This document shows positions 2-14,955 of a stretch of 59,284 nucleotides of DNA, in pieces. The notes under the pieces are model-generated. The model made no database searches, was not told where the DNA came from, and saw only the letters and a list, made by a program, of their open reading frames with translations. How positions within the stretch are numbered: the stretch's first letter is position 1; each line of letters starts with the position of its first letter. A program made the position numbers and the translations under genes. Where the stretch lies: the IMG/VR virus record IMGVR_UViG_3300042291_002144. One strand, written 5' to 3'. Source of the stretch: an uncultured virus (IMG/VR IMGVR_UViG_3300042291_002144) (lineage: Duplodnaviria; Heunggongvirae; Uroviricota; Caudoviricetes).

Positions 2-418
2 AGCGGTGATGAAGTAACTGAAAAATTTATAGAAAATACTATTTCACCAAAATATATAAAGCATGATATTTCTGATCTACTTCCATTAACTCCAGATAAA
101 ATTAAAGAGTTATTTAATAATAACTTTGTTGATATCTCAATAGAATCAGATCTATCTAAAAAGTTTCCATTTTCTCAATTTACTGACTTTGTTAAAGGCT
201 TTGGCCACCGACGTCTTGAATTATCTTCTTATTCAAGAGAATTAATTAAAAATCAAAGTGAAGTAGAACAAAATAGTGATTATTCATATAATATTTTTTC
301 AATATTAGATGAACATATCCAAAAATTAAATTTACCAATTTCTGAGTCATCTCCATTAATTAATAAATTTAAAGAAGTTTACGATTCACTAAAAAATACA
401 AAACACTACGATCAATGA
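2..418 (+). CDS. gp47: C-terminal part of recombination endonuclease subunit (T4 gp47/SbcD/Mre11-like), 5' truncated by window edge
   Basis: Open frame 2 from the window start (SGDEVTEKFIENTISPKY...KHYDQ*); its TGA overlaps the ATG of the gp46-like gene (ATGA). Position and the FIEN..P motif fit a gp47 C-terminus. Confidence 0.7.
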   Translation, partial: SGDEVTEKFIENTISPKYIKHDISDLLPLTPDKIKELFNNNFVDISIESDLSKKFPFSQFTDFVKGFGHRRLELSSYSRELIKNQSEVEQNSDYSYNIFSILDEHIQKLNLPISESSPLINKFKEVYDSLKNTKHYDQ

Positions 419-2082
419 GATTATCTGAATTTTCATATAAAAATATCTTATCATACGGAAATAAGATCCAAACTTTTAAATTTGATGATAAACCTGGACT
501 AATCCTCGTGGAAGGCGAAAATGGAAGTGGCAAATCATCAATCAAAGAAGCTTTAACTGTTGCTATATATGGAAGATCAGCTATTCGTAAAATGAAAGAT
601 ATTCCAAATTGGATAAATCGTAATGCTCATACTAATGTTAAATTTATAACTACTTCTGGTGAATCAATTGAATTAACTCGTGGAATTGATCCAAATTTTA
701 ATGATATTAAAATAAATGGAGCAACATTTAATCTACCAGATAAACGAAAAGTAGATGAATTTATTGAAGATGAATTAGCAAAAATACCATTTTCAGTATT
801 TTGTAATACTATTAGTCTTTCATTTGATGATTTTAAATCCTTTGTTAACTTAAATAAGGAAGACAAACGAAAAATTGTCGATCGAATATTTGGAATTGAT
901 ATCTTAGCTGATATGCGAAATCAGGCTAAAAAAGAAGCTTTAGAAAATAAAAAAGTCCTTGATATTCTTGAATCAAATATTACTCTTAATGAGATAAATC
1001 TTGAAAATTATACTTCTCAATTAACTTTATTAAAGGATAAGTTAGTAAAAAAGAAAAACGACCTAATTGATCAACTCAGTGACAAAATAAAAACTGCTGA
1101 ATCTGATCTTGACTTGGCTAAATCTAATTATCAAACTATTAAAACTAGCCTAGAAGATCTTAATAAAACTAAAACAGCTGTTTCAGACGACCTAAGTAAA
1201 ATGAAATCATCAATTCGTGATTTTAATAATAAACTTGAACTTTATAATAAAAATAGATGCCCTCAGTGTTTAAATGACCTGCATTCAGATTCATCAATTG
1301 AGATAAAAGAAAAGATTGAAGAAAAATTAAAAAAACTCAATAGAGATCTTCCTAACTTACAAAAAGAAGTTGAAGAGTTAAGTGATAAATCTACTACTTT
1401 ACTTTTAGATAAAGGTACCGCTGAATCAGAATATTATAGAATAAAAGCAGATTTACAAAGCTTAAAGTCCTCATTAGAGGCTTCTCAGGAAACAGATAAT
1501 TCTGATGAATTAACTTCAATTAAAACTATAATTGATGATCTTAGAGATAAACTAAAAGCTGATCAACTTACTCAGTCTTCTCTGCTTAATACTAAAAATC
1601 TATACTTAAATTTAGATGATCTTCTTTCAGATAATGGAATTAAAAAATCAATGATAGATAAAATAATTCCTACCTTAAATTCAAGAATTTTAGAAATATC
1701 TGAGAAATTAGAGTTTAAATTCCCTTTTGAATTTGATAATGATTTTAATCCAATAATTAACTATTTAGGAATGCAAATTTCACCAGATAGTCTATCTACA
1801 GGTCAACGCAAAAAAATGAACTTAATTGTTCTTCTTGCATTTATTGAAATAATTAAAATGAAACATAGTCAAATGAACGTAATGTTCCTAGATGAGATCT
1901 TTAGTTCATTAGATAAAACAAATGTATATCGAGCAATTACAATACTTAAAGAGTATGCTGATAAATATGGAATGACCATCTTTGTAGTATCCCATGAATC
2001 TTTACCAGAAGAGTTATTTAATTATCGAATTTGTGTTACTCAACAAGACCATTTTTCAGAAATGGAAATAATTAAGATTTAA
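415..2082 (+). CDS. gp46: Recombination ATPase subunit (T4 gp46/SbcC/Rad50-like)
   Basis: Walker A GENGSGKS, long coiled coil with zinc hook CPQC, signature LSTGQ, Walker B MFLDEIFSSLD, VVSH switch. Confidence 0.95.
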   Translation: MRLSEFSYKNILSYGNKIQTFKFDDKPGLILVEGENGSGKSSIKEALTVAIYGRSAIRKMKDIPNWINRNAHTNVKFITTSGESIELTRGIDPNFNDIKINGATFNLPDKRKVDEFIEDELAKIPFSVFCNTISLSFDDFKSFVNLNKEDKRKIVDRIFGIDILADMRNQAKKEALENKKVLDILESNITLNEINLENYTSQLTLLKDKLVKKKNDLIDQLSDKIKTAESDLDLAKSNYQTIKTSLEDLNKTKTAVSDDLSKMKSSIRDFNNKLELYNKNRCPQCLNDLHSDSSIEIKEKIEEKLKKLNRDLPNLQKEVEELSDKSTTLLLDKGTAESEYYRIKADLQSLKSSLEASQETDNSDELTSIKTIIDDLRDKLKADQLTQSSLLNTKNLYLNLDDLLSDNGIKKSMIDKIIPTLNSRILEISEKLEFKFPFEFDNDFNPIINYLGMQISPDSLSTGQRKKMNLIVLLAFIEIIKMKHSQMNVMFLDEIFSSLDKTNVYRAITILKEYADKYGMTIFVVSHESLPEELFNYRICVTQQDHFSEMEIIKI

Positions 2083-2464: not shown

Positions 2465-2712
2465 TACTTTATTCCAAATAAATTTTTAAAGTTTTTAACG
2501 AATGGCATATCTTCACCATTATGGTCAAGTTTATATTCCTCGTTCTTAGTTATAATCGTCCAAATAATATTTCCAAAAAATGCTCCATTTGCAGCTATTC
2601 CAGAACCTATTATTCCATACCATTCCACTCCATCATTATACCATGATCCAACTAGTGTCCAATACATAATAAAAAAGAAAGTTGTTACTATCCAATAAAC
2701 AATATTTACCAT
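2464..2712 (-). CDS. Small two-TM membrane protein (holin-like topology possible)
   Basis: 82 aa, two hydrophobic helices and a charged C-terminal tail; preceded by a late-type promoter motif at 2724-2738. Confidence 0.7.
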   Translation of the reverse strand: MVNIVYWIVTTFFFIMYWTLVGSWYNDGVEWYGIIGSGIAANGAFFGNIIWTIITKNEEYKLDHNGEDMPFVKNFKNLFGIK

Positions 2713-2723
2713 TATAATATAGT

Positions 2724-2738
2724 TTTTTATTATTTATC
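2724..2738 (-). promoter_or_regulatory. Putative late promoter GATAAATAATAAAAA
   Basis: Copy of a motif recurring upstream of many genes; contains the ATAAATA core of the T4 late promoter TATAAATA. Confidence 0.65.
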
Positions 2739-5700
2739 CTTCTACTTGAATAAAACCAATTCCTCCAAACTCTGATCGGTAATCTATAAAGTCCATCTTA
2801 TTGCCTTCAAGCTCAGACCATAATTGATCTACTCGACAATTAGCATTTCTATGAAATTCAGTATCTTTAGTATCGTGAAAACCAATCCATCCTCCAGGTT
2901 TTACTAAGTGTCTATACATTTCATAATCTTGTTTTACTCCATCATATGTATGATCACCATCAATAAATAGAAAATCTAATAACTCTCCAGATAAAACTGA
3001 TTCTACTTCTTCTAACATTGTATAATCATGCGAAGATCCACATAGCATTGTTACATTTGAGCCAAGCGATTTAAGATATTCATCTCTTTCATATTCATCA
3101 TAATCTGCTCTTCCAAATTGACCATGAGGCATGTCTACTGATATTCTGATTCCATCATTAGATAGTTTACTCCAAATTGCAAAAGATCCTCCCTGATCAG
3201 TACCTATTTCCATAAAATTAGTCACATCTAAACTCTTAAAGAATTCAGCTGCTTCTAATATTTCTTTATGATTTTGCACCATTCCTAAATCGTATGATTC
3301 TTGAACAATTACCTCTACTGATTTTTCAGAATGACCAATCGCCTCATATCTTTCAATTTCTTTAATTACATCATATGCTATAATATTTCTAGTACATTCA
3401 AATTGGCGATGAGTTCCTTTTTGATCAGGACACCAGTTCCAATCACCAGCATCTAATCTATGTCTATTGAAACATCCAGTACATCCTCCACCTTTAAATA
3501 TTCTAATTACATTATCATCAAATATTTCAGTAGATGGTAAACTAAATCCTGAAATTAATACAGTAGGTGTTCCAACTGCCCAAGATAACCAACTTAATCC
3601 TGAACCTACTCCTACAAACATCTCACTATGTTTTAAATGAAGAATAACATTTGCTAAAGTGGAAGGTCCCTGTTTCATCGCTGCTCCATTAGGATAATAG
3701 TTTTGCATATATCCATCTTCTTCAAGCCCAATAATAATTACTTTTAATCCACGATCTATAAAATAATTAGTTAATTCTTGCCAACCATTTGGATTATTCC
3801 AATATTTTGCTTGTGCTGTTGCATGCATAGCAATACAAACGTATTTTCCATCAACTGGTGAATCTCCAAGAGGAATAGTTAATTTAGGTTTAATGGTAGT
3901 GTGAGTTATTCCCAATATATCACATGCAGTAGATTGAAGTGGCAGTTTTTTAAAATCATTTTGATGATATTCAGTATTTACTGAATTATCTGCATTATAA
4001 AACCAACCTATTTTATACTGTGCATATAAGTCATGAACGATTTCACCTGGAGAAACAAATTTTAATTCAGGATAATTTTCAATAAATAATTCATTTTTAA
4101 AAGTACTTATAATAACTTCACAATTATGTTTCTTTTTAAATTCAGCAACTTGTGGAAACCACGCAAGAGAATCTCCTAGTGCACTTGATTCAAGGGAAAT
4201 TAGAACTCTTTTTCCAGCAAGATTAATATCTTCTTCATAAACTTCCTTAGTATCTAAATTAGTTATTTTAACTTTCCAATCTACGAAATATTTAATATTA
4301 CTTCTAACCCAACAGTTAATATTAATTGTATTAGAATAAAGAATTTCATTACTTTTATTATCAATTAATTCTATTAGGAATTGACTATCACTTTGTCCAG
4401 TAATCTCAACAAATGCACCATTAATAAAATTAATATGATAGTTAATTGTTACTGGTCTAGGCTCTAATAATAAGTCTTTAATATAATTTGGGTTTGATAT
4501 CATACATGTTGCTTTTTTAGTTAAATTATTATATTCTTTTTTTATCTTTAAATTTGGAAAATCTACTGAAAATCCTTCATCTAAAAGATAGTTAGGTATC
4601 TTATACGCAACTATTTCACGAGGAGCAAGTTGATATTCAGTTAATTTATTTTGATATTTAATAAGAGTAAAAATAGATTCTGATTCTGCTCCAACTAAAC
4701 ACAAATAGTTTTCTCCATTTTGGTTTTGTGCAAGGTATACAAAACCATCTCCGCCAGATTTAGTTGTTAATTGAGGATAAGTTAAAAGAATAACACCATT
4801 TAGAGTATTTAATTTCTTTATTGATTCAATATTATTAATTTGAATATCTAATCCATATCCATCACATGCAGCATAGAGAACATCTTCTAATATTACTTTA
4901 CCATTATATGCAAAATAACTTTCCTTTGTTGTAAATGGTGCAAGAACTGAACTTAACATGCTAATGTTTGCTGAAAAGAATGCTGAATTAATCGAATCTT
5001 CACCATTCCATGAATATGCAATCATATCATAATCAGTTAAGTTAGTATGATGCACTTCTAATAATTTAGGGTCATCAATAATATAGTCATAATTTATAAA
5101 GTGAGCAGTTGAACAAGTATTTGATTTTGCAATACCTAATCCGTTTTTAATAAGCTTCAATGCTGCAAACCCATGATTAAACTCATATGAATAAGATAAA
5201 TCAAAATCTGGGTATCTAATATAGTGGATTGGTACAGTATTTGATAACTTATGATATTCGTCTGGGTAAACTACTGGATTGTCTCTATCAAATATTACAT
5301 AATCTGCAATTTTATAAAATTCTGTTGGTACTTCAATATGTGATGATATAATTACAAGTAAACCCTGATTTTTTAAACTATTTACAGATCTTCTTAAAAG
5401 AGATAATTTTTCAGGAGTATCTGCATGCGACATTATAATTGCGGCTTCATCTTTTCTAGTAACTTCAAGTGTAATTGGGCACACCTTTTTTAATTGTTCA
5501 AATCCTTCTAAACCAACCTTTGCCCAATTAAATTCTTGAAAAATTAAGTCAGCTTCTTCTCTAGCTAATTTCTTTTTATCTCCCCAATTTTCAAAGCAAT
5601 CAATCATTACCTCTTTAAGATTATCAAAGTCAGGCTCAGAGTATAACCCTGGAGTATATCTAGCAAAACCTAAGTTTGCTCCAATATTTGCAAGTCGTTC

Positions 5701-6639
5701 ATCTACTATTTTTACAGGATTTCCTTTTCCTTCTGCAAATTCTAATTGTGCTCCCCAATTAGAATAGATTACAGGTGTTCCGGCAACCATTGCTTCAATT
5801 AATGGAATATTCCAGCCTTCACTTCTTGCACAAGTTATTAAAACATGGCCATTTTTTAAATAGTCATCGTATTCTTCTCTACTTAAAAAATGTTTAATTT
5901 TAATTCGATCATCGAGTAATCCATAGTGATCTAGCCTCTCTTCAGTTGAATTTAATCCATCTATCGAATAAGGATTATCTGCACTTAGTATTAAACAAAC
6001 TTCATCATTATTTGGAAATGCTTCTAAGAATGCTTTAACTATTTCAGGTACAGATTTACGATAATCCCATCTTCCAAAAAACATAAATTCAAAGCTATCT
6101 CTAGCTTTTTTATTTTCTGGTTTAAAATATAATACTTCATCCACTCCTTCATGGACTATAAATATTCTATGCTCTGGATATCCTTGTTTAATTGCAACTT
6201 CTCTATGCCATTTAGTAACCACCCATAAATAATCAAATTTTAATAATTGATTAAAAAATTCTTCAGGCAATTCTGTGCTTTCCCAAACAGTATATGCAAT
6301 TTTAACTTTTGCTGAATAATCTTCATAGAAATAATAATGGTTCATATCCATTAATACGATATCTATATCTTGTTTAAATTCATCAGTATTTGACTTCGTC
6401 CATGGGTAACCAGGCAAGCCGTGTGTAATATCATAGTCTGACTCGTTATCTTCACTATTTAATGTAATAGTATCAATTATTCTATAATCTATTTCATTTA
6501 AATAGTCTAGGTCATTATCCCAAGTATAGTTTCTTACTCTAAGATCTACGTGATTTGACAGTTCTCTAAAAAAAGATCGTGCATGTGCTGCATATCCAGT
6601 TTTTCCTAAGTAACATGTATGTGCTCTTACTTTCAACAT
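2734..6639 (-). CDS. Multidomain glycosylation enzyme: GT4-family GT + unknown domain + TibC/Aah-like protein O-heptosyltransferase + class I SAM methyltransferase (Methyltransf_24-like)
   Basis: N-terminal TGYA..R, YTVWES, FFGRWDYRK, RSEGWNIPLIEAM (GT4). LESSALGDSLAWFP..EFKKKHNC, FVGVGSGLSWLSWAVGTPTVLISGFS and iron-finger CTGCFN...WCP..FEC (TibC/Aah). C-terminal MEIGTDQGGS, DFLFIDGDHTYDGVKQD, LVKPGGWIGFHD (methyltransferase). Confidence 0.88.
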   Translation of the reverse strand: MLKVRAHTCYLGKTGYAAHARSFFRELSNHVDLRVRNYTWDNDLDYLNEIDYRIIDTITLNSEDNESDYDITHGLPGYPWTKSNTDEFKQDIDIVLMDMNHYYFYEDYSAKVKIAYTVWESTELPEEFFNQLLKFDYLWVVTKWHREVAIKQGYPEHRIFIVHEGVDEVLYFKPENKKARDSFEFMFFGRWDYRKSVPEIVKAFLEAFPNNDEVCLILSADNPYSIDGLNSTEERLDHYGLLDDRIKIKHFLSREEYDDYLKNGHVLITCARSEGWNIPLIEAMVAGTPVIYSNWGAQLEFAEGKGNPVKIVDERLANIGANLGFARYTPGLYSEPDFDNLKEVMIDCFENWGDKKKLAREEADLIFQEFNWAKVGLEGFEQLKKVCPITLEVTRKDEAAIIMSHADTPEKLSLLRRSVNSLKNQGLLVIISSHIEVPTEFYKIADYVIFDRDNPVVYPDEYHKLSNTVPIHYIRYPDFDLSYSYEFNHGFAALKLIKNGLGIAKSNTCSTAHFINYDYIIDDPKLLEVHHTNLTDYDMIAYSWNGEDSINSAFFSANISMLSSVLAPFTTKESYFAYNGKVILEDVLYAACDGYGLDIQINNIESIKKLNTLNGVILLTYPQLTTKSGGDGFVYLAQNQNGENYLCLVGAESESIFTLIKYQNKLTEYQLAPREIVAYKIPNYLLDEGFSVDFPNLKIKKEYNNLTKKATCMISNPNYIKDLLLEPRPVTINYHINFINGAFVEITGQSDSQFLIELIDNKSNEILYSNTININCWVRSNIKYFVDWKVKITNLDTKEVYEEDINLAGKRVLISLESSALGDSLAWFPQVAEFKKKHNCEVIISTFKNELFIENYPELKFVSPGEIVHDLYAQYKIGWFYNADNSVNTEYHQNDFKKLPLQSTACDILGITHTTIKPKLTIPLGDSPVDGKYVCIAMHATAQAKYWNNPNGWQELTNYFIDRGLKVIIIGLEEDGYMQNYYPNGAAMKQGPSTLANVILHLKHSEMFVGVGSGLSWLSWAVGTPTVLISGFSLPSTEIFDDNVIRIFKGGGCTGCFNRHRLDAGDWNWCPDQKGTHRQFECTRNIIAYDVIKEIERYEAIGHSEKSVEVIVQESYDLGMVQNHKEILEAAEFFKSLDVTNFMEIGTDQGGSFAIWSKLSNDGIRISVDMPHGQFGRADYDEYERDEYLKSLGSNVTMLCGSSHDYTMLEEVESVLSGELLDFLFIDGDHTYDGVKQDYEMYRHLVKPGGWIGFHDTKDTEFHRNANCRVDQLWSELEGNKMDFIDYRSEFGGIGFIQVEG

Positions 6640-6656
6640 AAAAATTCTTTTATATA

Positions 6657-6683
6657 ATTATATTAATATAAAATAAAAAGTTT
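6657..6683 (-). promoter_or_regulatory. Putative early/middle promoter AAAC-N17-TATAAT
   Basis: gAAAC tttttattttatattaa TATAAT just upstream of the glycosyltransferase ATG; the same spacing occurs at several other sites. Confidence 0.65.
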
Positions 6684-6697
6684 CACATTACGTGTGA

Positions 6698-9600
6698 TTA
6701 CAAACTGTTCTTAAGATCGTCTAGTGATTCAGCAGTTTTAATCTTATCAATTAAGTACTTAAGTGCTCCAAACATAGTCTTGTATACTTGATCAACGTTT
6801 AAAGTATGGAAATCTTCAAAGCCATGTTCTTCAGAAAAAGATACAGCTTTTGGAAATAACTCTTTAACCTCTTGTGCAATAAAACCTATTGCATTTCTAT
6901 CATCTACTTCAGGATAAAATGTTTCATCCCATGTAAATCTTTTTAGTGATAATCCACTAACGATATCAAAACATGTCTTAAGATTAGCATCTTGAATATT
7001 AGTTTTTACTCTTGCATCTGAGCCTGTTGTCCAAGTAGTAGTTGTTAATTTTCTAGCACCATCTGTTGATAAATCCAACTGAACAGTCGGTCCTAATAAA
7101 CCTAGTCCTAATCTACTATTTGTTCCATCAAAATATGCAATAGCCGTTCCAGCCTTACCGTTATATATACCAGTATTTCTAAATTGAGTATATAGTCCAT
7201 TATATCCTCTATAATTAATATAAAGCTGATCTGTCCCATTAACTTTATTTGCCCATATTTCATTATCTATACCTATTCCAATCCCTCCAATTAGATTTGT
7301 TAAACTAGTGTCTGCTGTTGACGCTTGAATTGTACCTCGAGCAACAATATTTCCACTAGTTGGTGCAATAGTAAATAAGTTTTGACTTGCGCTTGCCCCA
7401 ATTATTCCCTTAAAGTTAAATCCACGAACTGTACTACTAGCATCAAAATTTATACCATCATCGTTTACACCAAGATCTAATGTATATGCACTAGTATTTG
7501 TACCTGTGGCTAGTCTAATAGTTTGAGTACCGTCTACTATATGTACTTTTGCGGTAGGCGCATTTATACCGATCCCGATATCTCTATTAACGTTATCAAT
7601 TACTAAATTCTCAAACCAGGTCGTTCCAGTATATCCCCATATCGCAAATTTTCCAACTCCTTGTTGTAGTGTAGAATATGATGACGGCGCTGCTCCTTGT
7701 AAATATAAGAACGGTCCGCCTTGGATAGTATTACTTGGGGTACCTATTATTCTTACACCAGTTCCATCGTAAGTAAAATTAGCTTCACCATTTATTGTAT
7801 TAGCTGTCCCAGTTGCAGTTATGACATACGTATCCACATTATTATTAATTGTTACACCTGCACCACTTGAACCAGAAGTACCTGAACTACCACTTGTACC
7901 ACTTGATCCTGATGTTCCTCGAGTACCGCTTGTTCCAGATGATCCGCTTGTTCCAGATGATCCGCTTGTTCCAGAAGAACCGTTTATATTATTATCACCA
8001 GTAATTGCTATATACCATGTATTAAAGGTACCTGATCCAACTACATAATCTACATTTACATTAATATTTGCTGACTGTGGATCAGTAATAACAGTAGTTA
8101 TTTGACCTTCCATGTAAGTTGTACTACTATTCCATATTCTAACTCTAGTCCCTTGTTGCCATCCTAAATTATTAATAGGCGTACCTATAGTTAATGTTTT
8201 TGATCCAGTCGTTAAACTTAAACTTAAAGCCGTATATGACAATGCCATTGCTGCTTTATATCCACTTGAACCAGAAGATCCGCTTGTACCTGAACTTCCA
8301 CTTACTCCAGAAGAACCACTAGTTCCACTAGATCCGCTAGTACCTGAGCTTCCAGATGTACCTGAAGAACCCCTAGTTCCGCTTGTACCTGAACTTCCAC
8401 TTACTCCAGAAGAACCACTTGTACCTGAGCTACCGGATACTCCAGAAGAACCGCTTGTTCCGCTAGATCCAGATGTACCTGAAGATCCATTAATACCACT
8501 AGTACCTGAACTTCCACTAGTACCGCTTGAACCAGATGTACCTGAAGAACCCCTAGTTCCGCTTGTACCTGAACTTCCACTTACTCCAGAAGAACCACTT
8601 GTACCTGAGCTACCTGATATCCCTGAAGATCCGCTAGTTCCTGATGATCCATTAATACCGCTTGTCCCAGATGTCCCGGAAGAACCGGATACTCCTGAAG
8701 TTCCAGAAGATCCATTAGTACCTGAGCTACCTGATGTACCACGTGTACCTGAAGATCCACTAGTACCTGAACTTCCGCTTGTACCTGAAGATCCAGATAT
8801 TCCCGAGGATCCGCTAGTACCTGATGTCCCTGAGCTACCACTAGTACCTGAAGATCCAGATACTCCAGATGATCCACTTGTACCACTCGAACCGCTTGAT
8901 CCTGATGTACCAGAAGATCCACTAGACCCAGAAGATCCTGAAGTACCACTTGATCCAGAAGTACCACTTGATCCAGAAGATCCTGAAGTACCACTTGATC
9001 CTGAGCTACCTGATATTCCAGAAGTTCCACTTGATCCTGAACTACCACTAGTTCCTGATGATCCAGAAGTTCCTCGTGTCCCAGAAGATCCGCTAGTACC
9101 TGAAGATCCATTTACTCCTGAAGTACCGCTAGTTCCTGATGATCCAGACGTTCCACTTGAACCGGAAGATCCACTTGAACCAGAACTACCGCTTGAACCG
9201 GAAGTACCCGAAGAACCAGATATCCCTGATGATCCGCTTGTGCCTGATGAGCCATTAGTTCCCGATGTACCCGAAGAACCACGAGTACCACTTGTACCTG
9301 AACTTCCTGATGTACCAGATGATCCATTAATGCCGCTTGTTCCAGATGTTCCTGAGCTACCGGATATCCCTGAAGATCCACTTGTACCAGATGATCCATT
9401 AATACCACTTGTACCAGACGATCCGGATGTACCTGAAGAACCAGATATCCCCGAAGATCCGCTAGTTCCTGATGATCCATTTACTCCACTAGTACCCGAA
9501 GAACCACGAGTACCACTTGTACCTGAACTTCCTGATGTACCAGATGATCCATTAGTTCCAGAAGATCCTGAAGACCCACTTGTGCCTGAACTACCGGATG

Positions 9601-12600
9601 ATCCACTTGAACCACTGGTGCCAGATGTACCCGAAGATCCACTTACTCCAGAAGAACCGCTTGTTCCGCTAGATCCATTAATACCGCTAGTTCCTGAGGA
9701 TCCACTAGTACCTGATGTCCCACTTGATCCAGAGCTTCCGCTTGTCCCAGAAGAGCCAGATGAACCACTCGAACCAGAAGATCCTGAGTTACCGCTTGAA
9801 CCAGAAGTACCTGAAGAACCAGACGTGCCTCTCGATCCAGAAGATCCACTAGTGCCGCTTGATCCTGAGCTACCAGATACTCCAGAAGATCCACTTGTAC
9901 CTGATGATCCATTAGTACCTGATGTCCCACTTGATCCAGAGCTTCCGCTTGTACCTGATGATCCATTAATACCGCTAGTACCTGAAGATCCTGAAGTACC
10001 GCTTACTCCAGATGTACCGCTTGTACCTGATGATCCATTAATACCACTTGTTCCATTAGATCCAGAGGTACCTGACGTACCTGCTGACCCACTAGTACCT
10101 GAACTACCAGATATCCCTGAAGATCCAGATGTACCGCTTGATCCACGCGTACCTGAACTTCCACTAGTTCCAGAAGATCCACTAGTTCCAGAAGATCCAC
10201 TAGTTCCACTTGTCCCTGAACTACCACTAGTTCCACTTGAACCGGAAGATCCACTAGTTCCAGAAGATCCGCTTGATCCTGATGTACCACTTGATCCTGA
10301 TGTACCGCTTGAACCGGAAGTACCCGAAGAACCAGAGGTACCTGATGATCCATTAATGCCACTAATGCCGCTAGATCCAGATGAACCGCTTGTCCCTGAA
10401 CTACCACTTGTTCCAGAAGAACCAGAAGTACCGGACGATCCATTTACTCCACTAGTACCTGAGCTACCTGATACTCCAGAAGAACCACTTGTTCCGCTAG
10501 ATCCGCTTGTACCTGAAGATCCATTTACTCCACTTGTACCTGAACTTCCTGATGTACCTGATGATCCATTAATACCACTAGTACCTGAACTACCAGATAT
10601 CCCTGAAGATCCAGATGTACCACTTGATCCGCTTGTACCTGAACTTCCACTTGTCCCTGAAGAACCGCTTGTTCCAGAAGAACCATTTATTCCACTAGTA
10701 CCACTAGTACCAGATGACCCACTTGATCCTGAGCTACCTGCTCCTCCTAAATCAGATAATAATTGGGTCGCCGTTCTATATTTAACTACTCCTAAATCAC
10801 TGACTAAAAATTTATCAGTATTCGTCGTAGCATTCGCAATAGTAGAAATTTTAACGTCTCCGTTTACTTCTAATTTAGTAGACGGAGTTAACGTCCCGAT
10901 ACCTACATTACCAGAGGCCAATATAAACATTCGAGTAGATGTCCCCGTTACAAATGACAAATCATTAGTATTACCAACTGCTCCTATTATCGCTCTATTT
11001 GTATCCCATGATAAATAACCATTAGCACTAGTCGGGTCTGCATTTAGACCCCAATACTGTATACCATCTGATGTAAAATTAAATCTTTGTGTACCTGCGC
11101 TACTAAACCTTACAATAGAAGTTGCAGATGTATCTCCAACACTATTTACAACAAGTGATGCAGTAGGAGTTAACGTACCGATACCTACATCACCATTTGA
11201 AAATACAGTTGCTCCACTAGTAGTTATTGACATTCTTGTCTGTCCAGCAACTCTATCATATATTTCATAAGGTAAACCTAAAGCAATACCCGTACCAACT
11301 TCCCATCTATTAACACCAGCAGACCAATAAGCTATTGATGAATTCGCAGTAGTTGCTGCTGATTCTAATCTTATGATAGCAGTTTGTGTACTTGAAGGAT
11401 TAGATTTAACATGTAATACAGTAGCTGGTGTAAGAGTACCCATACCAACATTACCATTTGTATCAATTATAAATGGGCTTGCATCAACATTTGTATCATC
11501 TTCAACTATCATTGAAGCATTTGCAGTTGTATTATTAATGTGAAATTTTGCAGTAGGCGCTGCAATACCTAGACCAGCGTTTGCTGCAGCCGTGATAGTA
11601 AGTCCACTTATTGAACTTCCTGTGGAGTTTGAATTAACTATTAAGTTATTATGGCCGATGTTTGATGTACCTCCAGCAGCCCATTGAATATATATTGTAG
11701 CTGGTGCACCAATTAAATTACCATTTGAAAAATACGTATTTATTTCATTACTGTTTTGAAAAAGAGTATAATTTGTAGTATCATTATGATTAAATCTAAC
11801 AGTTCCATTTACATCTAAATTTGCTCCTGGAGTTGCTGTACCAATTCCAAACCCAGTTGTTGTTTTACGAGCAAATTCAGAGTTACCTCTATAGAATACA
11901 ACATCGTGGTTACTTAAAGACCCAAATGATGAACCTTGACCATCTGATGCTAAATAGGTTCTTACGCCAGCACCAGATTCTATATTTATTTTTGTGGAAT
12001 TAGAACTAATTAAATTTATATTTCCATTAATATTTAATTTTTCAGATATACTCACTGCACCAATACCAACATTGCCATTTGCATCAATTACAAATGGTGA
12101 TGAGTCTGGATTAGTATCATCTTCTACTAAAAATGAATTACCAGTACCTACGTTGTTTATATGTAGTTTAGCAGATGGTGTAGTTATGCCAATGCCGACA
12201 TTGCCACTTGTATTTATTCTCATTGCTTCAGAACTTCCAATGAAGAAATTCATATCTACTGTAGTATAAAGTGTTGTTAATACATCACTCGCACCACCTA
12301 TTATTGAAGCTGAATCACCAAATGCATATAAAGTAGTTGAACTAGCGTTTTTAGTACCATAATATGCTGATCCTAGTGATGTACCTTTCAATCTAACTAG
12401 TGTACTTGCTACGTTTGATAGATTTTTAATATCGAGTACAAATCCTTCATTTGCTAATTGCCCTCCTATTCCAACATTACCTGAAGTAGGATCAATATAA
12501 ATTGATGAAGTAGATGACAATGATGAATTTGTTTGCCATTTAACTACATAATTTTGTGTTCCAGTTGATGCAAACGATGTACCGCTAGTACCCGAAGATC

Positions 12601-14005
12601 CACTTGTTCCGCTTGATCCGCTTGATCCTGATAAACCACTAGTACCTGAAGAACCAGAAGATCCTGATGATCCACTTAATCCGGAGCTACCACTTGTACC
12701 AGAAGATCCTGAGTTACCGCTTGAACCAGAAGTACCCGAAGAACCAGATGTCCCTGAGCTACCACTAGTACCCGACGAACCTGATGTGCCGCTTGAACCA
12801 GATGTCCCTGAGCTACCTGAAGATCCGTTTGTTCCAGAAGAACCAGATGTACCAGATGACCCGCTTGTTCCATTAGAGCCAGATGTTCCAGAACTTCCTG
12901 ATGTACCAGATGACCCATTAATACCACTTGTTCCAGAAGAACCGCTAGATCCACTAGTACCGGAACTTCCTGATGTTCCTGAAGAACCACTTGATCCTGA
13001 AACTCCAGATGTACCTGATGACCCACTTAATCCACTAGTACCGGACGTTCCTGAAGAACCACTTGACCCTGAAGTACCAGAACTACCACTAGATCCTGAA
13101 GAACCTGATGATCCATTAATACCACTTGTTCCAGATGTCCCTGAGCTACCACTTGAACCAGACGTACCATTAGATCCTGAAGTACCAGAACTACCACTAG
13201 ATCCCGAAGAACCGCTAGTTCCATTAGATCCAGATGTCCCTGAGCTACCGCTCGATCCGGAAGATCCACTAGTACCAGAAGAACCTGAATTACCACTTGT
13301 ACCAGAACTTCCGCTTGATCCATTGGATCCACTAGTACCAGAAGAGCCTGAAGAACCATTAATACCGCTAGTACCAGATGTGCCAGAAGATCCACTTGTT
13401 CCAGAAGATCCTGAATTACCGCTCGTACCTGAAGATCCTGAGCTACCTGAAGAACCAGATACTCCAGACGTTCCAGAAGATCCACTTATCCCTGAACTAC
13501 CGCTAGATCCTGAAGATCCAGAAATACCGGAGGTACCTGAAGATCCGCTTACTCCACTAGTACCGCTTGAACCATCTGTACCTGATATACCACTCGTACC
13601 TGAAGATCCGCTTACTCCACTAGTACCGCTTGAACCATCTGTACCTGATATACCACTCGTACCTGAAGAACCACTTGATCCTGAAATACCGGAGGTACCT
13701 GAAGATCCTGATCCAGGAATATTAATTGTTACTGCTGATCCTGTGGTTGATGCAGTAACACCAGCTCCAGTAAAATTAAGTAATGAAAGTGAAGAAGTTA
13801 AAGTAGATCCTTCGTCTTGTACAGTTATAGGAGTTCCACTCCCACCACCACCTCCTTCAATTACTGTAATTACACCAAAACGGTCCATTTTACATAACTT
13901 TCCGCCATTACTTGTATCGAAACCTATTAGATAAGCCCCTACTGGTATTTTAGCATAATCGACTAGTGTAAAATCTATAATTGGATAAACGTGGCTAACC
14001 CCCAT
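6698..14005 (-). CDS. Long tail fibre/virion fibre with Gly-X-Y Ser/Thr collagen-like blocks, GNVGIG repeats and C-terminal peptidase S74 intramolecular chaperone
   Basis: 2435 aa. Three GSSGTS-type triplet blocks, multiple GNVGIG.T.P repeats, and C-terminal GSDARVKTNI...GFIAQEV..FP.AV S74 motif. Confidence 0.88.
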   Translation of the reverse strand: MGVSHVYPIIDFTLVDYAKIPVGAYLIGFDTSNGGKLCKMDRFGVITVIEGGGGGSGTPITVQDEGSTLTSSLSLLNFTGAGVTASTTGSAVTINIPGSGSSGTSGISGSSGSSGTSGISGTDGSSGTSGVSGSSGTSGISGTDGSSGTSGVSGSSGTSGISGSSGSSGSSGISGSSGTSGVSGSSGSSGSSGTSGNSGSSGTSGSSGTSGTSGINGSSGSSGTSGSNGSSGSSGTSGNSGSSGTSGSSGSSGSSGTSGSNGTSGSSGSSGSSGTSGSNGTSGSSGSSGTSGTSGINGSSGSSGSSGSSGTSGSSGSSGTSGTSGLSGSSGTSGVSGSSGSSGTSGSSGTSGSSGSSGTSGINGSSGTSGSSGTSGSNGTSGSSGTSGSSGTNGSSGSSGTSGSSGTSGSSGTSGSSGTSGSSGTSGSSGNSGSSGTSGSSGLSGSSGSSGSSGTSGLSGSSGSSGTSGSSGTSGTSFASTGTQNYVVKWQTNSSLSSTSSIYIDPTSGNVGIGGQLANEGFVLDIKNLSNVASTLVRLKGTSLGSAYYGTKNASSTTLYAFGDSASIIGGASDVLTTLYTTVDMNFFIGSSEAMRINTSGNVGIGITTPSAKLHINNVGTGNSFLVEDDTNPDSSPFVIDANGNVGIGAVSISEKLNINGNINLISSNSTKINIESGAGVRTYLASDGQGSSFGSLSNHDVVFYRGNSEFARKTTTGFGIGTATPGANLDVNGTVRFNHNDTTNYTLFQNSNEINTYFSNGNLIGAPATIYIQWAAGGTSNIGHNNLIVNSNSTGSSISGLTITAAANAGLGIAAPTAKFHINNTTANASMIVEDDTNVDASPFIIDTNGNVGMGTLTPATVLHVKSNPSSTQTAIIRLESAATTANSSIAYWSAGVNRWEVGTGIALGLPYEIYDRVAGQTRMSITTSGATVFSNGDVGIGTLTPTASLVVNSVGDTSATSIVRFSSAGTQRFNFTSDGIQYWGLNADPTSANGYLSWDTNRAIIGAVGNTNDLSFVTGTSTRMFILASGNVGIGTLTPSTKLEVNGDVKISTIANATTNTDKFLVSDLGVVKYRTATQLLSDLGGAGSSGSSGSSGTSGTSGINGSSGTSGSSGTSGSSGTSGSSGTSGSSGISGSSGTSGINGSSGTSGSSGTSGVNGSSGTSGSSGTSGSSGVSGSSGTSGVNGSSGTSGSSGTSGSSGTSGSSGSSGISGINGSSGTSGSSGTSGSSGTSGSSGTSGSSGSSGTSGSSGSSGTSGSSGTSGTSGSSGTSGSSGTSGSSGTRGSSGTSGSSGISGSSGTSGSAGTSGTSGSNGTSGINGSSGTSGTSGVSGTSGSSGTSGINGSSGTSGSSGSSGTSGTNGSSGTSGSSGVSGSSGSSGTSGSSGSRGTSGSSGTSGSSGNSGSSGSSGSSGSSGTSGSSGSSGTSGTSGSSGTSGINGSSGTSGSSGVSGSSGTSGTSGSSGSSGSSGTSGSSGSSGTNGSSGTSGSSGTSGTRGSSGTSGVNGSSGTSGSSGISGSSGTSGSSGTSGINGSSGTSGSSGISGSSGTSGTSGINGSSGTSGSSGTSGTRGSSGTSGTNGSSGTSGSSGISGSSGTSGSSGSSGSSGSSGSSGTSGSSGTSGTSGVNGSSGTSGSSGTRGTSGSSGTSGSSGSSGTSGISGSSGSSGTSGSSGSSGTSGSSGTSGSSGSSGSSGTSGSSGSSGTSGSSGVSGSSGTSGSSGTSGTSGSSGISGSSGTSGSSGTSGSSGTRGTSGSSGTNGSSGTSGVSGSSGTSGTSGINGSSGTSGSSGISGSSGTSGSSGVSGSSGTSGTRGSSGTSGSSGTSGSSGTSGINGSSGTSGSSGTSGSSGVSGSSGTSGSSGVSGSSGTSGTRGSSGTSGSSGTSGSSGTSGSSGVSGSSGTSGSSGSSGYKAAMALSYTALSLSLTTGSKTLTIGTPINNLGWQQGTRVRIWNSSTTYMEGQITTVITDPQSANINVNVDYVVGSGTFNTWYIAITGDNNINGSSGTSGSSGTSGSSGTSGTRGTSGSSGTSGSSGTSGSSGAGVTINNNVDTYVITATGTANTINGEANFTYDGTGVRIIGTPSNTIQGGPFLYLQGAAPSSYSTLQQGVGKFAIWGYTGTTWFENLVIDNVNRDIGIGINAPTAKVHIVDGTQTIRLATGTNTSAYTLDLGVNDDGINFDASSTVRGFNFKGIIGASASQNLFTIAPTSGNIVARGTIQASTADTSLTNLIGGIGIGIDNEIWANKVNGTDQLYINYRGYNGLYTQFRNTGIYNGKAGTAIAYFDGTNSRLGLGLLGPTVQLDLSTDGARKLTTTTWTTGSDARVKTNIQDANLKTCFDIVSGLSLKRFTWDETFYPEVDDRNAIGFIAQEVKELFPKAVSFSEEHGFEDFHTLNVDQVYKTMFGALKYLIDKIKTAESLDDLKNSL
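7860..7985 (-). repeat. Gly-X-Y triplet repeat block 3 of fibre
   Basis: GSSGTSGSSGTS...GSSGAG encoded by 9/18-bp degenerate repeats. Boundaries approximate. Confidence 0.85.
8260..10745 (-). repeat. Gly-X-Y triplet repeat block 2 of fibre (~820 aa)
   Basis: GSS/GTS/GIN/GVS/GIS/GTR triplets with degenerate 9/18-bp nucleotide periodicity. Boundaries approximate. Confidence 0.9.
12576..13712 (-). repeat. Gly-X-Y triplet repeat block 1 of fibre (~375 aa)
   Basis: GSS/GTS/GSN/GIN/GLS triplets; includes an exact 63-bp tandem duplication at 13533-13669. Boundaries approximate. Confidence 0.9.
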
Positions 14006-14017
14006 TTAATAAAAAGT

Positions 14018-14033: not shown

Positions 14034-14042
14034 ATACTCTTG

Positions 14043-14085: not shown

Positions 14086-14955
14086 ATGGTAATCTATCAA
14101 TCCAAAACCTTTGCTGATGTTTATGAAGAGCTTCTGAATGATTTAATTAATGAGCCTGAGTATATAACTCAACCTAGGGATATGAAAATTAATGAGATTT
14201 GTGATGTATCTCTAGTAATAGAGGAACCTCTTTCATGTCTATACTTAAACCCATTTAGATCTTCTCAATTCAAGTATATTGCTGCTGAGTTTTTATGGTA
14301 TTTTATGGGCAGAAACGATGTTGAATATATTTCAAAGTTTGCAAAGTTTTGGGAATCAATTGAAAATGGTGACGGTACTGTAAATTCTTCATATGGGCAT
14401 CTCTTATTTAATAATAAGAATGAGCATGGTTTCACACAATACCTTTGGGCATTAGAATCATTAACTCAAGATAAGGATTCACGACAAGCTGTCATACACT
14501 TTAATTTACCTACTCATCAGCGATCTGGAAATAAAGATTTTGTTTGTACTATGTATGGTATTTTTCAAATTAGAGATAACAAACTTAATTTTACAGTAAG
14601 CATGAGAAGCAATGACGTCATATTAGGATTACCTACTGATGTTGCTTTCTTTGTTACTTTACAATCTCAAATGCTTGCTCATCTTCGTATTCATTCAGGA
14701 TATCCAAATCTAGAACTAGGTACTTATACTCATATTGCTAATTCTTCACATATTTATGAAAGACATTTTCAATTAGCAAGTAACATGATTACTAGGAAAT
14801 TTGAACCAATTGCTATTCCAGCGGTTGATCTTGATTTAATAAATATTGATGGAACACCTACTGAAAATTTTAAAGCTTTATTTGATAATCAAGAAGAACA
14901 AATTGAATTAACTGATGAATTATATAATTGGATAATTAATAACATTAACTTATGA
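14086..14955 (+). CDS. Thymidylate-synthase-fold enzyme, T4 gp42-like dCMP hydroxymethylase/methylase candidate
   Basis: NSSYG, DSRQA, catalytic DFVCT, MRSNDVILGLPTD, SSHIYERH. Asp sits at the position that is Asn in dUMP-specific ThyA. Confidence 0.85.
   Translation: MVIYQSKTFADVYEELLNDLINEPEYITQPRDMKINEICDVSLVIEEPLSCLYLNPFRSSQFKYIAAEFLWYFMGRNDVEYISKFAKFWESIENGDGTVNSSYGHLLFNNKNEHGFTQYLWALESLTQDKDSRQAVIHFNLPTHQRSGNKDFVCTMYGIFQIRDNKLNFTVSMRSNDVILGLPTDVAFFVTLQSQMLAHLRIHSGYPNLELGTYTHIANSSHIYERHFQLASNMITRKFEPIAIPAVDLDLINIDGTPTENFKALFDNQEEQIELTDELYNWIINNINL

What the first reader, a model, noticed from the sequence alone, without database searches (positions are those of the whole stretch)
2734..14005. 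Candidate phage 'glyco-collagen' system: proline-free Gly-X-Y Ser/Thr fibre next to a TibC/Aah-type protein O-glycosyltransferase fusion
Seen: about 1200 residues of the fibre are Gly-X-Y triplets (GSS GTS GIN GVS GTR) with X/Y mostly Ser/Thr and no Pro. The adjacent co-oriented gene fuses GT4, an unknown domain, a TibC/Aah-like domain and a SAM methyltransferase. Established: TibC/Aah heptosylate many Ser residues on repetitive autotransporter passengers; S74-type chaperones fold trimeric fibres; glycosylated Thr can stabilise collagen triple helices lacking hydroxyproline (vent-worm cuticle collagen). Inference: the phage hyper-O-glycosylates hundreds of Ser/Thr on a trimeric collagen-like fibre, then extends and methylates the glycan, to stabilise the helix and/or shield or adhere the virion.
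Basis: partly seen in the sequence, partly recalled or inferred. Interest (0 to 1): 0.88.

Follow-up and report, generated by a model that had tools for sequence, protein, structure and literature searches.

The report
Phage fibre with its own glycosylation enzyme
A large uncultured phage encodes a giant proline-free collagen-like fibre made of Gly-Ser/Thr-Ser triplets, and right next to it a four-domain sugar-adding and methylating enzyme related to the E. coli adhesin-glycosylating enzyme TibC, so the phage probably sugar-coats its own fibre, although no sugar has yet been observed.

Summary
Window 6698-14005(-) encodes a 2435-aa fibre with 417 unbroken Gly-X-Y triplets. These hold no Pro and have Ser at Y in 375 of 417. 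The fibre ends in an S74 chaperone domain.

- 43 of 80 IMG/VR TibC loci (23 of 38 clusters) have a Ser/Thr-type GXY ORF within 10 kb.
- In a sample of 67 GXY contigs, TibC occurred only beside GSSGTS-type fibres (2 of 4 against 0 of 63).
- In the window's own clade, the thyA-sbcC site is either empty, holds the GSSGTS fibre plus the enzyme, or holds GPT/GPQ fibres without any such enzyme.

The phage branch lacks TibC's adenine-reading Arg-286, so the donor may not be ADP-heptose. No glycan, triple helix or activity has been shown. Counter-examples exist, namely a GSS-type fibre without TibC and TibC loci without GXY.

This scan has noted the same pairing before on other DNA (23 notes, at least 22 genomes). 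I found no paper on it.

The parts
6698..14005 (-). Fibre gene, 2435 aa: collagen-like Gly-Ser/Thr-Ser fibre with a C-terminal S74 chaperone
   Evidence: ORF and translation; Pfam Collagen E 3e-167 and Peptidase_S74; PHROG tail-fibre families
12575..13708 (-). GXY run 1 (aa 100-477, 126 triplets, no Pro)
   Evidence: script count
10748..12574 (-). Central non-collagen domain (aa 478-1086) with repeated 'NVGIG..P..KL' motifs
   Evidence: translation; no Pfam family at E 0.01 or better
8255..10747 (-). GXY run 2 (aa 1087-1917, 277 triplets, no Pro)
   Evidence: script count
7856..7981 (-). GXY run 3 (aa 2009-2050, 14 triplets), preceded by a 91-aa non-repeat insert (aa 1918-2008)
   Evidence: script count
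6701..7021 (-). S74-type intramolecular chaperone domain (aa 2329-2435); the motif GSDARVKTN begins at aa 2328
   Evidence: PF13884, 51.2 bits against a cut-off of 22; motif position
2734..6639 (-). Four-domain enzyme gene, 1301 aa: GT4, GT-A-like, TibC-like and methyltransferase
5470..6384 (-). GT4 (GT-B) glycosyltransferase domain (about aa 86-390)
   Evidence: PF00534, 44.7 bits against 26.4; phrog_2170 over aa 91-385 at E 4e-28
4771..5466 (-). GT-A-fold domain (about aa 392-623). Asp-518 is invariant and Tyr-517 near-invariant across the alignment.
   Evidence: AF2 model, pLDDT 86.8; VIA Z about 15, rmsd about 2.9 A over 165-175 residues to GT-A enzymes; alignment A1; residue numbers
3349..4431 (-). 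TibC/Aah-family (BAHT) protein O-glycosyltransferase domain (aa 737-1097). D823, T941, K945, W1017 and Cys 1053/1056/1070/1082 are conserved. V998 stands in place of TibC Arg-286.
   Evidence: residue roles from PMC4358343, sections 10 and 11
2866..3279 (-). SAM-dependent methyltransferase domain (aa 1121-1258): Methyltransf_24 / rhamnosyl O-methyltransferase-CmcI type
   Evidence: PF13578, 62.2 bits against 26.3; PF04989, 31.9 bits against 23.2
14086..14955 (+). thyA, left border of the cassette's insertion site
   Evidence: phrog_160; synteny
415..2082 (+). sbcC-like nuclease gene, right border of the insertion site
   Evidence: phrog_77; synteny

Best explanation
This is a two-gene phage cassette, a substrate gene and its modifying enzyme. 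The 2435-aa fibre is made in the infected cell and is brought together as a trimer by its C-terminal S74 chaperone domain. The neighbouring 1301-aa enzyme O-glycosylates the Ser (perhaps also Thr) side chains of the Gly-Ser/Thr-Ser triplets.

The proposed division of labour is:
- The TibC-like domain puts on the first sugar, using Asp-823 as the base.
- The GT-A-like and GT4 domains extend the glycan.
- The CmcI-type methyltransferase O-methylates it.

The result would be a densely sugar-coated fibre on the virion.

Shown here: the domain identities, the conserved catalytic residues, and the specific genomic coupling of this enzyme branch to Ser-at-Y collagen-like fibres.

Inferred: that the fibre is the acceptor, the order of the steps, and what the glycan does (hydration, stiffening or stabilising a Pro-free helix, protease or antibody shielding, or adhesion).

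The donor sugar is open. The phage branch lacks the Arg that reads adenine in TibC, so the donor need not be ADP-heptose.
For: 1. Family membership. TIGR04414 scores 310 bits against a cut-off of 200. PDB 4rap matches at E 1.7e-58 over nearly the full length. In 47 phage-branch sequences, Asp-110, Lys-230 and Trp-305 are kept in 47 of 47, Thr-226 in 46 of 47, and the four iron-finger Cys in 46-47 of 47. Residue roles come from PMC4358343, sections 10-11.

2. Forward co-occurrence. 217 IMG/VR stretches encode relatives, and 80 loci were kept. Of these 80, 46 have a GXY ORF of at least 10 triplets within 10 kb, and 43 of those 46 are Ser/Thr-type and Pro-free. By 90% clusters, including three GenBank records, that is 23 of 38, and 13 lie less than 1.2 kb from the enzyme gene. 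Controls from the window's own clade gave 0 of 25 PhoH loci, 7 of 68 tube loci and 11 of 77 topoisomerase loci. All the tube and topoisomerase positives lie at the syntenic fibre site.

3. Reverse test. In an arbitrary IMG/VR sample of 67 contigs with GXY ORFs, TibC was found beside 2 of 4 GSSGTS-type fibres and 0 of 63 other types such as GPQ, GPT, GAT, GDK and GYS. Clear homologues of the fusion's GT4 domain (43-47% identity) and any homologues of its GT-A domain were likewise found only on those two contigs. The one other hit was a weak GT4 match (27% identity, E 8e-22) beside a Pro-type GXY ORF in L351.

4. Natural experiment at one site in the window's clade.
- thyA and sbcC abut (gap under 100 bp) in 9 of the 12 relatives' loci that show both genes.
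- The window, L004 and L006 carry the GSSGTS fibre plus the fusion there.
- G007 (GPT/GAT fibre) and G008 (GPQ fibre) carry fibres there with no homologue of any of the four enzyme domains.

5. Branch specificity. In bacterial genomes and MAGs, 4 of the 5 loci with at least 45% identity have GSSGTS ORFs, against 0 of 51 canonical bacterial homologues. The phage branch is a 48-row clade on a branch of length 0.69 with SH-aLRT 100.

6. Module logic. The TibC-like domain is fused to, or abuts, a second glycosyltransferase (GT4 or GT2), and often a methyltransferase from one of three different Pfam families (MT24/CmcI, FkbM, MT23/11), in varying order.

7. Decay without a partner. One relative without any collagen ORF over cut-off (G006) keeps only a frameshifted C-terminal TibC remnant.
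Against: - No glycan, activity or virion location has been observed. All the evidence is genomic.
- The coupling is not obligate. 15 of 38 clusters have no Ser/Thr GXY ORF within the flanks seen. Some of those flanks are short. Others hold a different neighbour: a giant structural ORF (five clusters), a non-GXY Ser/Thr-rich fibre with an S74 end (L059), a tail sheath (L021), or nothing suggestive (L029, L033, L003).
- One GSS-type fibre contig of 52 kb (L358, estimated 29% complete) has no TibC.
- Known BAHT substrates are beta-helical autotransporters, not collagen-like repeats (PMC4358343).
- Arg-286 is replaced (V998; V/I/L/A/T in 45 of 47 phage-branch sequences, against Arg in 43 of 48 bacterial ones). 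In TibC, the Arg-286-to-Ala mutant lost or largely lost activity.
- A phage-borne gmhA-like gene was found in only 2 of 19 TibC-bearing contigs.
- Controls for the forward test came from a single phage clade.
Confidence: 0.7

Rival explanations
1. The enzyme remodels the host cell surface, for example LPS or host surface proteins, to block superinfection. Its position next to the fibre gene would then be an accident of a variable 'host-recognition' island.
For: This is the usual reading of glycosyltransferases found in the tail-fibre islands of aquatic myophages (PMC7029224, passages seen). The Pfam hit PF01075 is named for LPS heptosyltransferases. Some TibC loci have no obvious fibre substrate nearby (L029, L033, L003).
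Against: The domain passes the curated model for the protein-modifying BAHT family (310 bits). It scores only 18.9 bits on LPS heptosyltransferase I, whose cut-off is 185. Presence follows the fibre's repeat type rather than the phage clade or the site. No membrane or secretion feature was looked for or seen.
Confidence: 0.08
2. The enzyme glycosylates other virion proteins, such as capsid, tail tube or other fibres, as in mycobacteriophages. The GSSGTS fibre would then be at most one of several targets.
For: Virion glycosylation of capsid and tail-tube subunits by phage enzymes is known (Freeman et al. 2023; known to me only as cited in PMC12619734). In five clusters a stand-alone TibC follows a giant structural ORF of more than 1900 aa with few GXY triplets. 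In L059 it precedes a non-GXY Ser/Thr-rich S74 fibre.
Against: At the thyA-sbcC site the enzyme comes and goes with the GSSGTS fibre, while the rest of the structural genes stay in place. In the reverse sample the enzyme was absent from 63 of 63 contigs with other fibre types.
Confidence: 0.12
3. The fibre is glycosylated, but the Gly-Ser/Thr-Ser region is not a collagen triple helix. It would instead be a flexible, mucin-like 'bottle-brush' stalk held together only at the trimeric non-repeat domains.
For: The 1251 repeat residues contain no Pro and almost no charged residues. From my own recall, not from a call, known bacterial collagens rely on Pro or on charge pairs. Ser/Thr-rich glycosylated linkers are common.
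Against: The strict Gly period runs for up to 277 triplets without a single break. A merely disordered linker would not need that. The same strict period holds in relatives with up to 1000 triplets. [quoted passage not shown]
Confidence: 0.3

Closest known systems
TibC-TibA and Aah-AIDA-I of E. coli (bacterial autotransporter heptosyltransferases, BAHT; TIGR04414; PDB 4rap/4rb4; PMC4358343)
   Same: The domain is a family member by the curated model. It keeps the catalytic Asp, the phosphate- and sugar-binding Thr, Lys and Trp, and the four-Cys iron finger. As in E. coli, the enzyme gene sits next to the gene of a long repetitive Ser-rich protein, and many Ser residues are modified in a soluble, cytoplasmic reaction.
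   Different: It is phage-encoded. The neighbour is a Gly-X-Y fibre, not a beta-helical autotransporter. The domain is fused to GT4, GT-A-like and methyltransferase domains, which implies a longer, methylated glycan. It lies on a separate, long-branched clade. It lacks the adenine-contacting Arg-286, so the donor may differ.
BclA, the collagen-like exosporium glycoprotein of Bacillus anthracis and its relatives
   Same: BclA is a trimeric, microbial collagen-like filament. Oligosaccharide side chains sit on its collagen-like region and end in an unusual capped sugar (PMC7793302, passage and reference list seen).
   Different: From my recall, BclA repeats are Pro-containing (GPT). Its glycosyltransferases are not BAHT-type. 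It belongs to a spore, not a virus. Here, GPT-type phage fibres at the same genomic site carry no such enzyme.
Virion glycosylation in mycobacteriophages (Freeman et al. 2023, Cell Host Microbe; known to me only as cited in PMC12619734)
   Same: Phage-encoded glycosyltransferases decorate the phage's own structural proteins.
   Different: The targets there are the C-termini of capsid and tail-tube subunits. No TibC-family enzyme or collagen-like substrate is described in the passages I saw.
Glycosylated animal collagens: galactosyl-threonine cuticle collagen of Riftia, and Hyl-linked Gal-Glc made by COLGALT1/LH3
   Same: Sugars sit on hydroxyl side chains of Gly-X-Y triplets. In Riftia the high level of glycosylation is reported to contribute to thermal stability (PMC10141479). 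The GT-A-like domain here shares the general GT-A fold with COLGALT1 and LH3 (Foldseek E about 1e-5 to 1e-6, 10-13% identity).
   Different: These are eukaryotic, secretory-pathway enzymes from other families. The fold match is generic to GT-A: bacterial GT-A enzymes score the same or better in VIA. It does not indicate a specific relationship.

Membership tests
BAHT (TibC/Aah, TIGR04414) | Scores above the curated equivalog cut-off over the full model | tested here: met
   310 bits against a cut-off of 200; model positions 15-373 of 374; aa 737-1097
BAHT (TibC/Aah, TIGR04414) | Catalytic base Asp-110 | tested here: met
   D823 aligns with Asp-110; Asp in 47 of 47 phage-branch sequences; role from PMC4358343 section 11
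BAHT (TibC/Aah, TIGR04414) | Beta-phosphate and heptose contacts Thr-226, Lys-230 and Trp-305 | tested here: met
   T941, K945 and W1017; 46, 47 and 47 of 47 in the phage branch
BAHT (TibC/Aah, TIGR04414) | Arg-286 contacting adenine N1 (the basis of ADP-sugar specificity; the Ala mutant is inactive or much weakened) | tested here: not met
   V998 stands in its place. The phage branch has V 25, I 9, L 6, A 3, T 2 and R 1 of 47 (one further residue not listed). Bacterial homologues have R in 43 of 48.
BAHT (TibC/Aah, TIGR04414) | Iron finger of four Cys (Cys-339, 342, 358, 370) | tested here: met
   C1053, C1056, C1070 and C1082; conserved in 46-47 of 47; role from PMC4358343 section 10
BAHT (TibC/Aah, TIGR04414) | Ring-shaped dodecamer formed through the beta-hairpin thumb | not testable with these tools
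   The thumb-tip residues Phe-265/Val-266 align to Tyr/Met next to a 3-residue gap. Oligomeric state is unknown, and the domain is embedded in a 1301-aa fusion.
BAHT (TibC/Aah, TIGR04414) | Partner substrate is a neighbouring autotransporter with a beta-helical passenger | tested here: not met
   The neighbour carries only Collagen and Peptidase_S74 domains. No autotransporter appears among the window's ORFs scanned with PHROGs.
BAHT (TibC/Aah, TIGR04414) | Transfers heptose from ADP-heptose to Ser | not testable with these tools
   This needs an enzyme assay. A gmhA-like gene is present in only 2 of 19 TibC-bearing phage contigs.
Collagen-like triple-helix proteins (PF01391) | Long unbroken Gly-X-Y periodicity | tested here: met
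   417 triplets in runs of 126, 277 and 14; Pfam E 3e-167
Collagen-like triple-helix proteins (PF01391) | Stabilising Pro/Hyp or charged residues at X/Y (the feature itself is recalled, not taken from a call) | tested here: not met
   0 Pro in 1251 residues. X and Y are almost entirely Ser, Thr, Ile, Val and Asn.
Collagen-like triple-helix proteins (PF01391) | Forms a trimeric triple helix | not testable with these tools
   This needs CD, EM or a crystal structure.
S74 intramolecular-chaperone fibres (PF13884) | C-terminal chaperone-of-endosialidase domain above cut-off | tested here: met
   51.2 bits against 22; aa 2329-2388
S74 intramolecular-chaperone fibres (PF13884) | Autocleavage at the conserved Ser before the domain | not tested
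   The motif GSDARVKTN at aa 2328 looks like the cleavage motif as I recall it. No call tested this.
GT4 glycosyltransferases (PF00534) | Domain above the gathering score | tested here: met
   44.7 bits against 26.4
GT-A-fold glycosyltransferases | GT-A fold with an acidic (DXD-like) motif | tested here: inconclusive
   Z about 15 to the WrtF fucosyltransferase, mannosylglycerate synthase and hyaluronan synthase, but the same Z to nucleotidyltransferases of the same fold (IspD, GlmU). Asp-518 is invariant within 'NYDYIIDD'. No Pfam family matches.
Methyltransf_24 / RMNT_CmcI sugar O-methyltransferases | Domain above the gathering score | tested here: met
   PF13578, 62.2 bits against 26.3; PF04989, 31.9 bits against 23.2

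The most novel reading that the evidence does not exclude
A distinct phage branch of the TibC/Aah family has been re-aimed from beta-helical adhesins to collagen-like triplets, and from ADP-heptose to another nucleotide sugar. Together with fused extension and methylation domains, it would turn hundreds of Ser residues per chain into a methylated glycan coat that takes the place of proline in holding a collagen triple helix together. That would make these fibres a 'glyco-collagen' whose folding depends on a virus-encoded enzyme. The branch occurs in at least 217 IMG/VR contigs of large aquatic phages.
Probability: 0.25. Interest if true: 0.85.

Novelty: new variant of a known kind. Interest (0 to 1): 0.7.

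Why it matters
If the fibre is indeed glycosylated, this would be protein hyper-O-glycosylation carried out by tailed phages on their own host-recognition or decoration fibres. It would use an enzyme family known so far only from Gram-negative adhesin biogenesis.

Three consequences follow:
- It would change how the many 'LPS-type' glycosyltransferases in the fibre islands of aquatic phages are read.
- It would add a sugar layer to models of phage adsorption, stability and immune or grazing resistance.
- It would give collagen chemistry a natural Pro-free, Ser-linked glycosylated triple helix to study.

The enzyme and substrate are next-door genes, and a cultured relative exists (Microcystis phage Mel-JY01). 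The idea can therefore be tested directly by co-expression and mass spectrometry.

Tried and rejected
- Trimer prediction. Three copies of fibre aa 1840-2060 gave a score of 0.00 against a mark of 0.32. The tool's verdict was 'no answer', so nothing follows from it either way.
- Own genome. The window's assembly is not held. The nearest record is a 31-kb fragment without a collagen match, so a whole-genome count of fibres and sugar-pathway genes was not possible.
- Phage-encoded heptose synthesis as support for 'heptosylation'. A gmhA-like gene was found in only 2 of 19 TibC-bearing contigs (both below the curated cut-off) and in 0 of 20 clade contigs. This is not informative. hldE and gmhB were not searched. 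The 'cytidylyltransferase-like' gene near the Mel-JY01 cassette gave only a marginal CTP_transf_like hit (E 4e-4) and no NCBIfam hit.
- DNA glycosylation. I considered this and dropped it, because the TibC family is protein-specific and its presence tracks the fibre type.
- Promoter and terminator scan. Promoter-like sites were no more frequent than in shuffled sequence (46 against 52), and there is no terminator-like site between the two genes. The scan neither shows nor excludes an operon.
- The Foldseek top hits to human collagen glycosyltransferases (COLGALT1, LH3) are tempting. I rejected them as a specific link because identity is 10-13%, TM is 0.34-0.41, and bacterial GT-A enzymes score the same or better in VIA.
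- Literature. Searches for TibC with phage, TibC with collagen-like, autotransporter heptosyltransferase with bacteriophage, heptosyltransferase with collagen-like and phage, collagen-like with glycosylation, tail fiber and phage, and Mel-JY01 found no paper linking this enzyme family to phage fibres. The library lacks most subscription journals, and no supplements were read.
- Corrections to my own first counts. The GXY ORFs near L073 (GAQ type), L024 and L048 (Pro type) are not Ser/Thr type, so they were removed from the positives. The tree labels still counted L073 as positive (32 of 48; the corrected figure is 31 of 48).

Full report
**What is there**

The window is part of a large, low-GC (about 30%) myovirus-like phage. 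It encodes a tail tube, sheath-like and baseplate proteins, topoisomerase II, thyA, a dCMP deaminase and PhoH. Its major capsid protein is closest, at 32-37% identity, to uncultured huge phages and Lak phages. CheckV estimates for relatives' contigs (176 kb estimated as 70% complete) suggest a genome of about 250 kb.

Between thyA (14086-14955, +) and an sbcC-like gene (415-2082, +) lie four minus-strand ORFs. These are the 2435-aa fibre (6698-14005), the 1301-aa enzyme (2734-6639), and two small ORFs with no family hit.

**The fibre**

A script found 417 Gly-X-Y triplets in three unbroken runs of 126, 277 and 14, with no Pro. X is Ser (203) or Thr (159). Y is Ser in 375 of 417. The runs are separated by a 609-aa non-repeat domain and a 91-aa insert. 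After them come a 278-aa C-terminal domain and a Peptidase_S74 chaperone domain.

The DNA repeats are degenerate. GC rises to 0.40-0.46 across the gene because of its codon content.

**The enzyme**

- Pfam finds GT4, GT9/TibC_1st and Methyltransf_24/CmcI.
- The TibC-like part matches the solved TibC structure (4rap) at E 1.7e-58 over chain residues 27-380.
- It passes the curated BAHT equivalog TIGR04414, at 310 bits against a cut-off of 200.
- Residues 3-234 of that model have a GT-A fold: Z about 15, rmsd about 2.9 A over 165-175 residues. The same Z is reached by nucleotidyltransferases of that fold.
- An invariant Asp (D518, in 'NYDYIIDD') and the absence of any family hit leave it a probable, unclassified GT-A glycosyltransferase.

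**Family features**

The TibC paper (PMC4358343; abstract, passages, and section 11 read) defines the key residues. Asp-110 is the catalytic base. Thr-226 and Lys-230 contact the beta-phosphate. Trp-305 contacts heptose O4. Arg-286 contacts adenine N1. Cys-339, 342, 358 and 370 form an iron finger needed for the dodecamer.

In the window these positions are D823, T941, K945, W1017, V998 and C1053/1056/1070/1082.

I aligned 47 phage-branch and 48 bacterial sequences. All positions are conserved in both groups except the Arg. It is V/I/L/A/T in 45 of 47 phage-branch sequences (Arg in 1), against Arg in 43 of 48 bacterial ones. The preceding Glu is conserved in 46 of 48 bacterial sequences but is variable in phages. 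TibC itself was not in that alignment. The column was mapped through the pairwise alignment.

So the catalytic machinery is intact, but the nucleotide pocket differs systematically. 'Heptosyltransferase' should not be assumed.

**Does the enzyme travel with such fibres?**

*Forward test.* 217 IMG/VR stretches encode relatives of the domain, and the best 80 loci were kept.
- 46 of the 80 have a GXY ORF (at least 10 triplets in runs of at least 6) within 10 kb or less. 43 of those 46 are Ser/Thr-type without Pro.
- After clustering at 90% and adding three GenBank records, 23 of 38 clusters are positive. In 13 of them the fibre gene lies within 1.2 kb of the enzyme gene.
- Positives include Microcystis phage Mel-JY01. 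Its 1016-aa, 202-triplet frame is not annotated in the record. Another is a 735-kb uncultured phage.
- Controls came from the window's own clade: 0 of 25 PhoH loci, 7 of 68 tube loci and 11 of 77 topoisomerase loci. Every tube and topoisomerase positive lies at the syntenic fibre site.

Of 76 loci, giving 68 contigs, 67 contigs have a GXY ORF.
- TibC lies within the flanks of 2 of the 4 GSSGTS-type contigs.
- TibC lies within the flanks of 0 of the 63 others, which include GPQ, GPT, GAT, GDK and GYS types and several Pro-free Gln-rich types.
- Clear homologues of the fusion's GT4 domain (43-47% identity), and any homologues of its GT-A domain, occur only on the same two contigs. Apart from them there is one weak GT4 match (27% identity, E 8e-22) beside a Pro-type GXY ORF in L351.
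- My own exact calculation gives about 0.003 for 2 of 4 against 0 of 63.
- One GSS-type contig of 52 kb (estimated 29% complete) has no TibC anywhere on it.

*Natural experiment.* Among 27 tube-gene loci of at least 12 kb, 12 show both thyA and sbcC.
- In 9 of the 12 the two genes abut (gap under 100 bp).
- One has a 757-bp gap.
- Two loci (L138, L139; L139 lies in G002) hold about 4.8 kb of other ORFs.
- In the window, L004 and L006, the same site holds the GSSGTS fibre plus the fusion.
- In G007 the site holds a GPT/GAT fibre, and in G008 a GPQ fibre. Neither has a homologue of any of the four enzyme domains (tblastn, E 1e-4 or better).
- Across 20 long contigs of the clade, TibC occurs only in G009, 5 kb from four GTS-type fibre genes, and as a frameshifted C-terminal remnant in G006, which has no collagen match over cut-off.
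- G013 has a GSS-type fibre cut by the contig end, so it is uninformative.

*Bacterial genomes.* Of 56 loci, the five with at least 45% identity are MAG contigs, and four of them carry GSSGTS ORFs. None of the 51 more distant bacterial homologues does. On a quick ML tree the phage branch is one 48-row clade on a branch of length 0.69 with SH-aLRT 100. It includes those five MAG contigs and one Sediminibacterium MAG contig, L457 (39% identity), which was counted with the 51 above and has no GXY ORF on its 8 kb. In that clade 31 of 48 rows have a Ser/Thr GXY ORF nearby, after my correction of L073. In the bacterial part the count is 0 of 47.

**Module logic**

Across 30 representative proteins, the TibC-like domain is fused to, or directly preceded by, a second glycosyltransferase (GT4, or GT2 in two clusters). 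It is often joined to a methyltransferase from one of three different Pfam families (Methyltransf_24/CmcI, FkbM, Methyltransf_23/11), in different orders. Homologues of the GT-A-like domain also recur in or beside these genes. This looks like selection for a function, namely start, extend and methylate a glycan, rather than for one particular fusion.

**Limits and results against**

- Nothing biochemical is known.
- 15 of 38 clusters show no Ser/Thr GXY ORF within the flanks seen. In five of these a stand-alone TibC follows a GT4-methyltransferase ORF and a structural ORF of more than 1900 aa. L059 has a non-GXY Ser/Thr-rich S74 fibre next door. L021 has a tail sheath next door. L029, L033 and L003 show nothing suggestive. 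Others are cut short by contig ends.
- Pro-free GXY fibres of other compositions occur without the enzyme. The correlate is therefore Ser at Y, the likely acceptor, and not the lack of Pro as such.
- The forward controls come from one clade.
- The reverse sample is arbitrary, and its key cell holds only four contigs.
- A gmhA-like gene occurs in just 2 of 19 TibC-bearing contigs.

**Comparison and novelty**

The closest known system is TibC-TibA and Aah-AIDA-I. The domain is a member of that family by model score and by most defining residues. It differs in substrate type, in its fusion partners, in its clade and in the adenine-contacting Arg.

Functionally the cassette resembles BclA glycosylation (PMC7793302, passage). 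It also resembles mycobacteriophage virion glycosylation (seen only as cited in PMC12619734) and Thr-galactosylated Riftia collagen (PMC10141479, passage).

Six literature searches found no paper linking this family to phage fibres. Two papers on aquatic phages read such glycosyltransferases as acting on LPS or DNA.

This scan's own earlier notes describe the same pairing on other DNA: 23 notes in at least 22 genomes. They gave me the TIGR04414 lead and the idea of looking in bacterial genomes, and I tested both here. I rate the finding a new variant of a known kind, with a genomic case that is strong and a mechanism that is still inferred.

Noticed in passing
window 415-14955; relatives L111-L142, L478, L479, L139: The thyA-sbcC junction is a swap site for fibre cassettes in this phage clade. 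It is empty in 9 of the 12 loci that show both genes. Elsewhere it holds a GSSGTS fibre plus enzyme, a GPT/GAT fibre plus a second fibre-like ORF, a GPQ fibre, or about 4.8 kb of other ORFs.
   Followed up: partly
L001 (PP395634.1, Microcystis phage Mel-JY01), positions 2-3049, + strand: A 1016-aa open frame with 202 Gly-Ser/Thr-Ser triplets runs off the start of the record and is not annotated. The record instead annotates two minus-strand hypothetical CDSs over it, plus a short plus-strand CDS (2519-3052) at the frame's end. The fusion next to it is annotated 'methyltransferase FkbM'.
   Followed up: partly
L256 (G006:C1:132326-135544), about 1519-1891: A TibC remnant covers only query residues 243-368 and is split over two frames. 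It lies in a 138-kb relative that has no collagen match over cut-off, so it looks like a decaying gene.
   Followed up: partly
L010 1-6795 (also L007, L011, L025, L062): A giant structural ORF (over 1900 aa, open at the locus edge) lies upstream of a GT4-methyltransferase ORF and a stand-alone TibC. By eye, its sequence contains a stretch that looks like a Hint/intein insertion ending in 'SHN'.
   Followed up: no
L042 1273-3882 and L353 9851-12487: Some cassettes hold two kinds of collagen-like fibre side by side, one Ser/Thr-type and one Pro-containing (P about 0.15-0.21).
   Followed up: no
G025:C1:119364-119834 and G026:C1:118794-119264: A gmhA-like (phosphoheptose isomerase) gene, at 188 bits just under the cut-off of 209, occurs in two complete 343-373-kb TibC-bearing phage genomes. 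It was found in none of the other 37 records searched.
   Followed up: no
L061 13066-14833: Two Gly-rich (30% Gly), non-collagen ORFs ending in 'GGDGLVI..CW' lie near a TibC-FkbM fusion. They may be another fibre type.
   Followed up: no
window 2072-2712: Two small co-oriented ORFs (130 and 82 aa) lie downstream of the enzyme gene. They have no hit in Pfam, PHROGs or NCBIfam, and they are absent from relatives L004 and L006, where sbcC follows the fusion directly (L006: the fusion frame ends at 11704 and sbcC begins at 11707).
   Followed up: partly
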